From UHGV virus genome UHGV-0148496: a stretch of DNA of 16,302 nucleotides; one strand, 5' to 3'. Positions 15,001 to 16,302 of this stretch are shown one piece after another; the stretch's first letter is position 1, and every line of letters begins with the position of its first letter. Origin of the DNA: a virus. Position numbers: made by a program.

Positions 15001-16302
15001 ACAATTCAGGCGGTTGACTGTTGTCTGGTTTGCGGGGAGTTTGTTAAAAGAAACTGGCATGGTGAATCCCCCTGTGCGGAGGGGCAATCAGCAACTGGTG
15101 TTTTGTCACCGACCCTTATCCTTTCTGTGCGGGTTCAGGTGCTGATACTGAACTCACCGGGAGGCACCCGGCACCATGTGCATGATGATACAGATACGCG
15201 GCTTTAGCCCCTCTCCGGAGGGGCTTTCTTGTGGGCAAAAAAAGCCCGCGCTGGGAGACGCGGGCGGCAAGGAATAAACAACAAAACGTGAAGTAATATT
15301 TCAGCTGGCGAATAATATCCGACAGTAATCACTCTGCGCAATAGCGCGGCCTTTTTCGTATTGCGGGCTGTTGTCTATCTTCTGCCATTGTCCTGTAACT
15401 TCCGGACTTCAGCCCGCTCCTCATTTTACTCACAATATTATCCAGGCCGGGAGGATTCATGGCATTTAAACACTATGACGTGGTCAGGGCGGCGTCGCCG
15501 TCAGACCTTGCGGAGCGACTGACACAAAAACTGAAGGAGGGGTGGCAGCCATTTGGCAGTCCGGTGGCCATCACGCCTTATACCCTGATGCAGGCCATTG
15601 CGGCGGAAGGTGATGTCACCACACCTGTGGTGGTGAAGCCGTCGGATGGAGAAGGCGCAGTTATCAGCACCACCAGCAACCCGGAGTATTACTTTGTTGT
15701 TGCCCTGGCCGGGCAGTCAAACGGTATGGCGTATGGTGAAGGGCTTCCGCTGCCGGAGACATATGACCGTCCGGACCCGCGTATTAAACAGCTGGCGCGT
15801 CGCAGCACTGTCACGCCGGGTGGTGCGTCCTGTAACTACAATGACATTATTCCTGCGGACCACTGCCTGCATGATGTTCAGGATTTGAGTAAGTTTTCAC
15901 ACCCGAAAGCCAGCGCAGCTCAGTATGGATGCGTGGGGCAGGGATTACATATCGCGAAGAAATTGTTGCCGTTTATTCCGGCGAATGCCGGTATTCTTCT
16001 GGTTCCGTGCTGCCGTGGTGGTTCTGCATTTTTGGCGGGCGATGAAGGTACCTTCAGCGAATCCACCGGCGCAAGCGAGACCTCGGCACGCTGGGGTGTA
16101 GATAAGCCACTGTACAAGGACCTGCTTACCCGTACTCAGGCCGCACTGAAGGCTAACCCTAAAAATATTCTGCTTGCAGTGGTCTGGATGCAGGGCGAGT
16201 TTGATTTGAAACAGGGTGCATACGCCACTCAGCCGGGGCTGTTTGATTCCATGGCTGTCTCTTATACACATCTGACGCTGCCGACGATACTCCTTGTGTA
16301 GA

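What the first reader, a model, noticed from the sequence alone, without database searches (positions are those of the whole stretch)
16255..16302. Untrimmed Nextera adapter and index at the contig end
The terminal 48 nt are the Tn5 mosaic end plus adapter, an 8-nt index (reverse complement AAGGAGTA) and the start of the P5 sequence. The window's right edge is therefore an assembly artefact, the nanS-p-like ORF is truncated, and the last 16 residues of the track's 280-aa ORF are translated adapter. Any junction inferred here would be spurious.
Basis: seen in the sequence. Interest (0 to 1): 0.55.

Follow-up and report, generated by a model that had tools for sequence, protein, structure and literature searches.

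The report
Untrimmed Nextera adapter at contig end
The last 48 bases of this contig are synthetic Illumina Nextera adapter left untrimmed before assembly; they cut short a prophage sialate-esterase (nanS-p) gene and give it a false tail and stop codon.

Summary
Window 16255-16302 is an exact 48-nt prefix of the reverse complement of the published Nextera S507/N507 i5 index primer joined to Tn5ME-A. It consists of the 19-nt mosaic end, 14 nt of adapter, the index TACTCCTT (reverse complement of AAGGAGTA) and the first 7 nt of P5.

Homology to E. coli prophages (100% to strain cM8a) stops exactly at 16254, and the native gene continues TGGAAAAATATCG. The 48-mer is absent from 5,426 complete E. 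coli genomes. The 33-nt adapter core lies at the outward-facing ends of more than 120 contigs from unrelated bacteria and archaea.

The window is the whole contig ena:ERZ1755413:NODE_1679_length_16302_cov_6.96. The nanS-p homologue is 653 aa when complete; only codons 1-265 here are native.

The in-frame TAG stop (16299-16301) is the sixteenth adapter codon. Because of that stop the ORF was called as a complete gene, and the chimeric 280-aa protein is already in a public protein collection.

This is an artefact of no biological interest. Trim the contig to 1-16254 and mark the ORF as 3'-partial.

The parts
15459..16254 (+). Native 5' part of a nanS-p-type prophage 9-O-acetyl-sialate esterase gene: codons 1-265 plus the first base of codon 266. 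It carries DUF1737 (aa 3-50) and the N-terminal part of the SASA esterase domain (aa 83-253).
   Evidence: 100% DNA identity to E. coli cM8a up to 16254. Pfam DUF1737 and SASA matches. The full-length homologue is 653 aa.
16255..16273 (+). Tn5 mosaic end (Tn5MErev), CTGTCTCTTATACACATCT, 19 nt.
   Evidence: Exact match with 0 expected by chance. Sequence printed in PMC4248319.
16274..16287 (+). GACGCTGCCGACGA, the reverse complement of TCGTCGGCAGCGTC, which is the i5/read-1 side of the Nextera transposase adapter.
   Evidence: PMC3906532 gives the 33-mer as the sequence trimmed off read 2. Tn5ME-A is printed in PMC4248319.
16288..16295 (+). i5 index TACTCCTT, the reverse complement of AAGGAGTA (S507 / N507).
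   Evidence: S507 primer sequence in PMC7757419. N507 in PMC5861650. Exact match.
16296..16302 (+). GTGTAGA, the first 7 nt of the reverse complement of P5 (...GAGATCTACAC).
   Evidence: In 91 of 106 other public contig ends that carry bases beyond the index, the 8-mer is followed by a prefix of GTGTAGATCTCGGTGGTCGCCGTATCATT.
16299..16301 (+). Adapter-derived in-frame TAG that falsely terminates the 280-aa ORF (15459-16301).
   Evidence: the ORF listing and translate. A gene was called at these coordinates in the ENA-derived catalogue.

Best explanation
The terminal 48 nt are Illumina Nextera (Tn5 tagmentation) adapter carried into the assembly by untrimmed read-through. Shown: the sequence is exactly ME + A-side adapter + reverse complement of the S507/N507 i5 index + the start of P5; it sits at the extreme contig end pointing outward; and the native gene continues differently. 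Inferred: Tn5 cut the prophage DNA between 16254 and 16255 and attached the A-side adapter, and index PCR then added i5 = AAGGAGTA and P5. The resulting fragment was shorter than the read length, so read 2 ran through the insert into the adapter. The reads were not adapter-trimmed, so the SPAdes-style assembler extended the contig tip along this read. Also inferred: the tip is 48 nt because, with a largest k of 55, the unbranched path ends at the first 55-mer shared with another read-through fragment (7 genomic nt plus 48 adapter nt). Consequences shown: the nanS-p-type gene is cut after codon 265 of 653, and the adapter adds 15 false residues and an in-frame TAG. The ORF was therefore called as a complete 280-aa protein and entered a public protein collection.
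For: The 48 nt match the reverse complement of published S507 primer plus Tn5ME-A exactly (oligos; N507). PMC3906532 states that this 33-mer is the sequence to trim from read 2, and that inserts shorter than the read leave adapter at the read end. Shuffles gave 0 chance matches. All best E. coli matches, for both the last 1 kb and the whole window, end at exactly 16254. The alignment shows native TGGAAAAATATCG... against the window's CTGTCTCTTATAC.... The 48-mer is absent from 5,426 complete E. coli genomes. The 33-mer was found in at least 120 contigs of unrelated bacteria and archaea. In 114 of 128 occurrences it lies within 37 nt of the contig end and points outward. It is followed by a variable 8-mer (TACTCCTT six times) and then a P5 reverse-complement prefix. 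The window is the entire contig NODE_1679_length_16302_cov_6.96 of ENA assembly ERZ1755413. For the tip length, adapter tips in public contigs peak at 43-50 nt with a mode of 48, and 30 of 38 SPAdes-named contigs fall in that range. The k=55 shared-suffix model predicts modal tips of 46-50 nt for 1e3 to 5e5 read-through fragments.
Against: No reads are available, so read-through by a short insert, the number of supporting reads and the k values used are all inferred. Only 7 of the 29 nt of P5 are present. Why the assembler followed the adapter branch rather than the native continuation is not established. The gene is multicopy, with a median of 4 and up to 14 places per E. coli genome, which suggests a repeat-induced break. 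That remains an inference.
Confidence: 0.98

Rival explanations
1. A genuine in-vivo insertion of Tn5/IS50 or of an engineered EZ-Tn5-type transposon into nanS-p, with the contig ending just inside the element.
For: The first 19 nt are a Tn5-derived transposase recognition end.
Against: The 19-mer is the synthetic hyperactive mosaic end. It differs from the natural outside end at 3 positions and from the inside end at 4 (the natural end sequences are recalled from memory). What follows is not transposon interior but the Illumina A-side adapter, an i5 index and P5. Those are joined only by library PCR. The same string sits at contig ends in unrelated phyla. It is absent from 5,426 complete E. 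coli genomes.
Confidence: 0.003
2. The adapter is real contamination but did not arise from simple short-insert read-through. It could come from a chimeric library molecule, an adapter concatemer or carry-over of another indexed library. In that case the index would not belong to this sample.
For: Nothing specific. The contig alone cannot tell these apart, and k-mer coverage is low at 6.96.
Against: The order and orientation insert-ME-A14-i5-P5 is exactly what read-2 read-through gives. The genomic side is perfect up to the junction. This is the commonest form in public contigs.
Confidence: 0.015
3. Native sequence that resembles the adapter by chance, or a real variant 3' end of the gene.
For: None.
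Against: It is a 48/48 match to a synthetic oligo. Shuffles gave 0 matches. There is no hit in E. coli genomes. Every homologue continues with a further 388 codons.
Confidence: 0.001

Closest known systems
Nextera / Nextera XT adapter read-through (i5 side, the 'read 2' trimming sequence CTGTCTCTTATACACATCTGACGCTGCCGACGA)
   Same: Identical sequence, order and orientation, with an S507/N507 index and the start of P5. Its position at a contig end matches more than 100 other public contigs.
   Different: Nothing differs. Only 48 of the 70 possible adapter nucleotides are present.
Natural Tn5 / IS50 ends (OE, IE) and EZ-Tn5 transposon insertions
   Same: The 19-nt end is derived from these and is recognised by the same transposase.
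   Different: It is the synthetic mosaic end, with 3 and 4 mismatches to OE and IE (natural sequences from memory). It is followed by sequencing adapter rather than transposon DNA.
NanS-p, the prophage-encoded 9-O-acetyl sialate esterase of Stx and other lambdoid phages (933W NanS-p; PDB 6YP6 C-terminal domain; chromosomal NanS/YjhS, PDB 3PT5)
   Same: The native part of the ORF has the DUF1737 N-terminus and a SASA domain at the same residues as 933W NanS-p (aa 3-53 and 83-276 in PMC10462455; this ORF). It lies after Q and a three-tRNA cluster and, in the closest genome, before the lysis genes.
   Different: In this contig the gene is cut at codon 265, inside the esterase domain. It lacks the C-terminal lectin-like domain and carries a false 15-aa tail. 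No stx genes lie between the tRNAs and the gene.

Membership tests
Illumina Nextera i5-side adapter read-through | 19-nt Tn5 mosaic end CTGTCTCTTATACACATCT directly after the insert | tested here: met
   Exact match at 16255-16273; sequence as printed in PMC4248319.
Illumina Nextera i5-side adapter read-through | Followed by GACGCTGCCGACGA (reverse complement of TCGTCGGCAGCGTC) | tested here: met
   16274-16287; the 33-mer is named as the read-2 trimming sequence in PMC3906532.
Illumina Nextera i5-side adapter read-through | An 8-nt index from the i5 set, in reverse complement | tested here: met
   TACTCCTT is the reverse complement of AAGGAGTA, which is S507 and N507. The same 8-mer occurs at six other public contig ends.
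Illumina Nextera i5-side adapter read-through | Followed by the reverse complement of P5, GTGTAGATCTCGGTGGTCGCCGTATCATT | tested here: met
   The first 7 nt (GTGTAGA) are present and exact, and then the contig ends. The remaining 22 nt cannot be assessed.
Illumina Nextera i5-side adapter read-through | Non-genomic: homology to related genomes stops at the junction and the string is absent from finished genomes | tested here: met
   All matches end at 16254; the native continuation differs; no hit in 5,426 complete E. coli genomes.
Illumina Nextera i5-side adapter read-through | Supporting reads are short-insert pairs that all end at the same genomic base | not testable with these tools
   The raw reads behind ERZ1755413 are not available here.
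Natural Tn5/IS50 or EZ-Tn5 insertion | Natural OE or IE end, or a mosaic end followed by transposon interior | tested here: not met
   3 and 4 mismatches to OE and IE (natural sequences from memory). The mosaic end is followed by adapter, index and P5.
NanS-p prophage sialate O-acetylesterase | N-terminal DUF1737 plus catalytic SASA domain | tested here: met
   DUF1737 at aa 3-50 (E = 3.9e-16). SASA at aa 83-253 (E = 1.8e-8), covering only profile positions 7-135 of 226 because of the truncation.
NanS-p prophage sialate O-acetylesterase | C-terminal lectin-like carbohydrate-binding domain (DUF6645 / PDB 6YP6) | tested here: not met
   Absent from the window ORF because the contig ends. It is present in the cM8a homologue, whose DNA is 100% identical to the window up to 16254 (aa 503-616 DUF6645; aa 464-648 against 6YP6, E = 9.5e-61). 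The failure is due to the artefact, not to the gene.
NanS-p prophage sialate O-acetylesterase | Position in the late region of a lambdoid prophage, downstream of Q and the tRNAs and upstream of lysis genes | tested here: met
   Q, three tRNAs, then the esterase, DUF1378, DUF826, holin and lysozyme in cM8a; the tRNAs lie at 14702-14951 in the window.

The most novel reading that the evidence does not exclude
The evidence leaves room only for a data-quality reading, not a biological one. On that reading this contig is one instance of a systematic class. Untrimmed Nextera read-through leaves adapter tips of about 43-50 nt on SPAdes-style metagenome contigs. Tip length would be set by k = 55 minus the genomic suffix shared with other read-through fragments. 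In one reading frame the adapter supplies an in-frame TAG, so truncated genes are catalogued as complete proteins ending ...VSYTHLTLPT[index-dependent residues]. That the 48 nt are real DNA in a cell has a probability well below 0.01.
Probability: 0.6. Interest if true: 0.12.

Novelty: not a real feature. Interest (0 to 1): 0.04.

Why it matters
This matters only for data hygiene. The right end of the contig must not be read as a prophage boundary, an insertion site or a gene end. The 280-aa 'protein' is a chimera: 265 native residues, 15 adapter-derived residues and an adapter stop codon. It is already in a public protein collection as a complete gene. The true gene is an ordinary 653-aa nanS-p homologue. 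Trimming to 16254 and flagging the ORF as 3'-partial removes the problem.

Tried and rejected
1. Chance match: rejected, because no shuffle reached a match even with 3 mismatches allowed.

2. Real Tn5 or EZ-Tn5 insertion: rejected, because the mosaic end is followed by adapter, index and P5, and differs from the natural ends.

3. Further adapter pieces or an internal chimeric join elsewhere in the contig: none found for the Nextera A or B sides, TruSeq, P5 or P7 on either strand. The left end matches E. coli from base 1.

4. Chimeric assembly at window 209-693, where the closest genome cM8a differs: rejected, because the same junctions are contiguous at 99.8% in two other complete E. coli genomes.

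5. A paper search for AAGGAGTA together with N507 by word start found nothing. One search call failed because a term was too long. A substring search then found the oligo tables.

6. The phage collection holds no record covering 80% or more of the tRNA-to-nanS-p stretch. Stx phages match the gene at only about 80% identity.

Full report
**1. Observation**

The window ends ...TTGATTCCATGG|CTGTCTCTTATACACATCT GACGCTGCCGACGA TACTCCTT GTGTAGA, and the bar lies between 16254 and 16255.
- The composite pattern (mosaic end + adapter + N8 + GTGTAGA) matches once, at 16255-16302 on the + strand, with no mismatch.
- None of 200 dinucleotide-preserving shuffles gave a match, even with three mismatches allowed. 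The 19-nt mosaic end alone behaves the same way.

**2. Identity of the 48 nt, tested against printed oligonucleotides**

- PMC4248319 prints Tn5MErev as CTGTCTCTTATACACATCT and Tn5ME-A as TCGTCGGCAGCGTCAGATGTGTATAAGAGACAG.
- PMC3906532 states that CTGTCTCTTATACACATCTGACGCTGCCGACGA is the sequence to be trimmed off read 2 of Nextera XT libraries. It also states that inserts shorter than the read leave adapter at the read end.
- PMC7757419 prints the S507 index primer as AATGATACGGCGACCACCGAGATCTACAC-AAGGAGTA-TCGTCGGCAGCGTC. PMC5861650 gives the same index as N507.
- The reverse complement of S507 primer plus Tn5ME-A is a 70-mer, and the window's last 48 nt are its exact prefix.

**3. The 48 nt are not genomic**

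- The last kilobase and the whole window both match E. coli chromosomes: cM8a at 100% and 99.9%, and O104:H4 strains at 99.9% and 97.4%. Every listed match ends at window position 16254.
- In cM8a the gene continues TGGAAAAATATCGTTCTGACC..., so the sequences diverge from the first adapter base.
- The 48-mer has no match in 5,426 complete E. coli genomes.
- An exact scan of one genome per prokaryotic species found the 33-nt core in at least 120 contigs. They include Streptomyces, Collinsella, Planctomycetes, cyanobacteria and archaea.
- Of 128 occurrences, 114 lie within 37 nt of the contig end and point outward.
- The next 8 nt vary among a small set; TACTCCTT occurs six times.
- In 91 of 106 cases with further bases, the sequence continues as a prefix of GTGTAGATCTCGGTGGTCGCCGTATCATT.
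- A string shared by unrelated phyla only at contig ends is a library sequence, not biology.

**4. Provenance**

- An exact-sequence look-up of the 280-aa ORF returns a single contig, ena:ERZ1755413:NODE_1679_length_16302_cov_6.961039. Its length equals that of the window, and its last 10,844 nt are identical to the window.
- The window is therefore an entire SPAdes-style metagenome contig at about 7x k-mer coverage, and its right edge is the contig end.

**5. Effect on the ORF**

- Its translation ends ...GLFDSM AVSYTHLTLPTILLV*.
- Codon 265 (ATG, Met) is the last fully native codon.
- Codon 266 is a hybrid, G|CT.
- Residues 266-280 (15 residues) and the TAG stop at 16299-16301 come from the adapter.
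- Because the adapter supplies an in-frame stop, gene callers treat the ORF as complete. The chimeric protein is present in the public protein collection, called on this contig.

**6. The gene itself**

- In cM8a the homologous CDS is 653 aa and is annotated as a SASA family carbohydrate esterase. It lies after Q, a WYL-domain protein, an HTH protein and three tRNAs. It lies before DUF1378, DUF826, a holin and a lysozyme.
- Pfam finds DUF1737, SASA and DUF6645 in the full-length protein, but only DUF1737 and a partial SASA (profile positions 7-135 of 226) in the window's native 265 aa.
- Residues 73-391 match NanS/YjhS (PDB 3PT5, E = 1.4e-118). Residues 464-648 match the NanS-p C-terminal domain (PDB 6YP6, E = 9.5e-61).
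- This architecture is the one described for NanS-p of Stx phages (PMC10462455).
- 'nanS-p-like' is therefore correct, and the gene is cut inside its esterase domain.

**7. Mechanism**

Shown:
- The composition, order and orientation of the adapter.
- Its terminal position on the contig.
- The native continuation in related genomes.

Inferred:
- Tn5 cut between 16254 and 16255, PCR added i5 S507/N507 and P5, and the insert was shorter than the read. Read 2 then ran into the adapter, trimming was not done, and the assembler extended the tip.
- The contig probably broke here because the gene is multicopy, with a median of 4 and up to 14 places per E. coli genome that has it.

Proposed explanation for the 48-nt length:
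- In a de Bruijn graph with k = 55, all read-through junctions converge on the adapter.
- An unbranched path therefore ends at the first 55-mer shared with another junction, which holds g genomic nt plus 55 - g adapter nt.
- Here g = 7 (TCCATGG).
- That k = 55 is metaSPAdes' default largest k is my own knowledge.
- For 1e3 to 5e5 read-through fragments this predicts modal tips of 50 down to 46 nt.
- Public adapter tips peak at 43-50 nt with a mode of 48, and 30 of 38 SPAdes-named contigs fall in that range. Three of the four tips on MEGAHIT-named contigs are 36, 36 and 41 nt; the fourth occurrence is internal, 499 nt from the end.
- This is consistent with the model but not proven.

**8. Rivals**

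- A real Tn5 or EZ-Tn5 insertion is excluded by what follows the mosaic end, and by 3 and 4 mismatches to the natural OE and IE ends (natural end sequences from memory).
- Chance similarity is excluded.
- A chimeric library molecule or carry-over of another library cannot be told apart from plain read-through without reads. Either way the sequence is equally artefactual.

**9. Verdict**

The feature is an assembly and trimming artefact with no biological novelty. The practical action is to trim the contig to 1-16254, mark the ORF as 3'-partial, and disregard any junction or protein C-terminus inferred from 16255-16302.

Noticed in passing
window 14702-15458: Three tRNAs lie at 14702-14951, with anticodons CAT, TCG and TCT. 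ARAGORN calls the first Met, whereas RefSeq annotates the cM8a counterpart as Ile, consistent with a lysidine-type Ile tRNA. A 507-nt spacer then leads directly to nanS-p. This is the Q - tRNA - nanS-p layout of Stx phages, and no ORF as long as stx2A (about 319 aa, from memory) is listed between the tRNAs and nanS-p. No phage record covers 80% or more of this stretch, and Stx phages match the gene at only about 80% identity.
   Followed up: partly
window 209-693: This is the only large difference from the closest genome, cM8a. A 485-nt segment replaces 766 nt of cM8a in the early-left region, between a DUF551 gene and an ead/Ea22-like gene. The rest of the window is 99.95% identical. The window's version is contiguous at 99.8% in E. 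coli 23CRST047 and 23CRST049, so it is an ordinary mosaic module swap and not a misassembly.
   Followed up: yes
public contig ends, loci L002-L121: Adapter tips left on public contigs are not uniformly long. They peak at 43-50 nt with a mode of 48, the same as here. Within one MAG (CAJXTM01) the tips are 47, 47, 48, 48 and 50 nt. A k = 55 shared-suffix model reproduces this distribution.
   Followed up: partly
protein cluster holding the 280-aa ORF (P0001-P0015): The 90%-identity cluster of 3,518 members that contains the chimeric protein also lists fragments named 'phage terminase large subunit family protein'. One of them, P0006, has no detectable similarity to the full-length NanS-p homologue (best E = 0.38). 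The cluster appears to be chained through unrelated or chimeric partial sequences.
   Followed up: partly
window 1-453, - strand: The left contig end cuts a DUF551-domain gene. There is no adapter there, and homology to E. coli starts at base 1. That end looks like a plain assembly break.
   Followed up: partly
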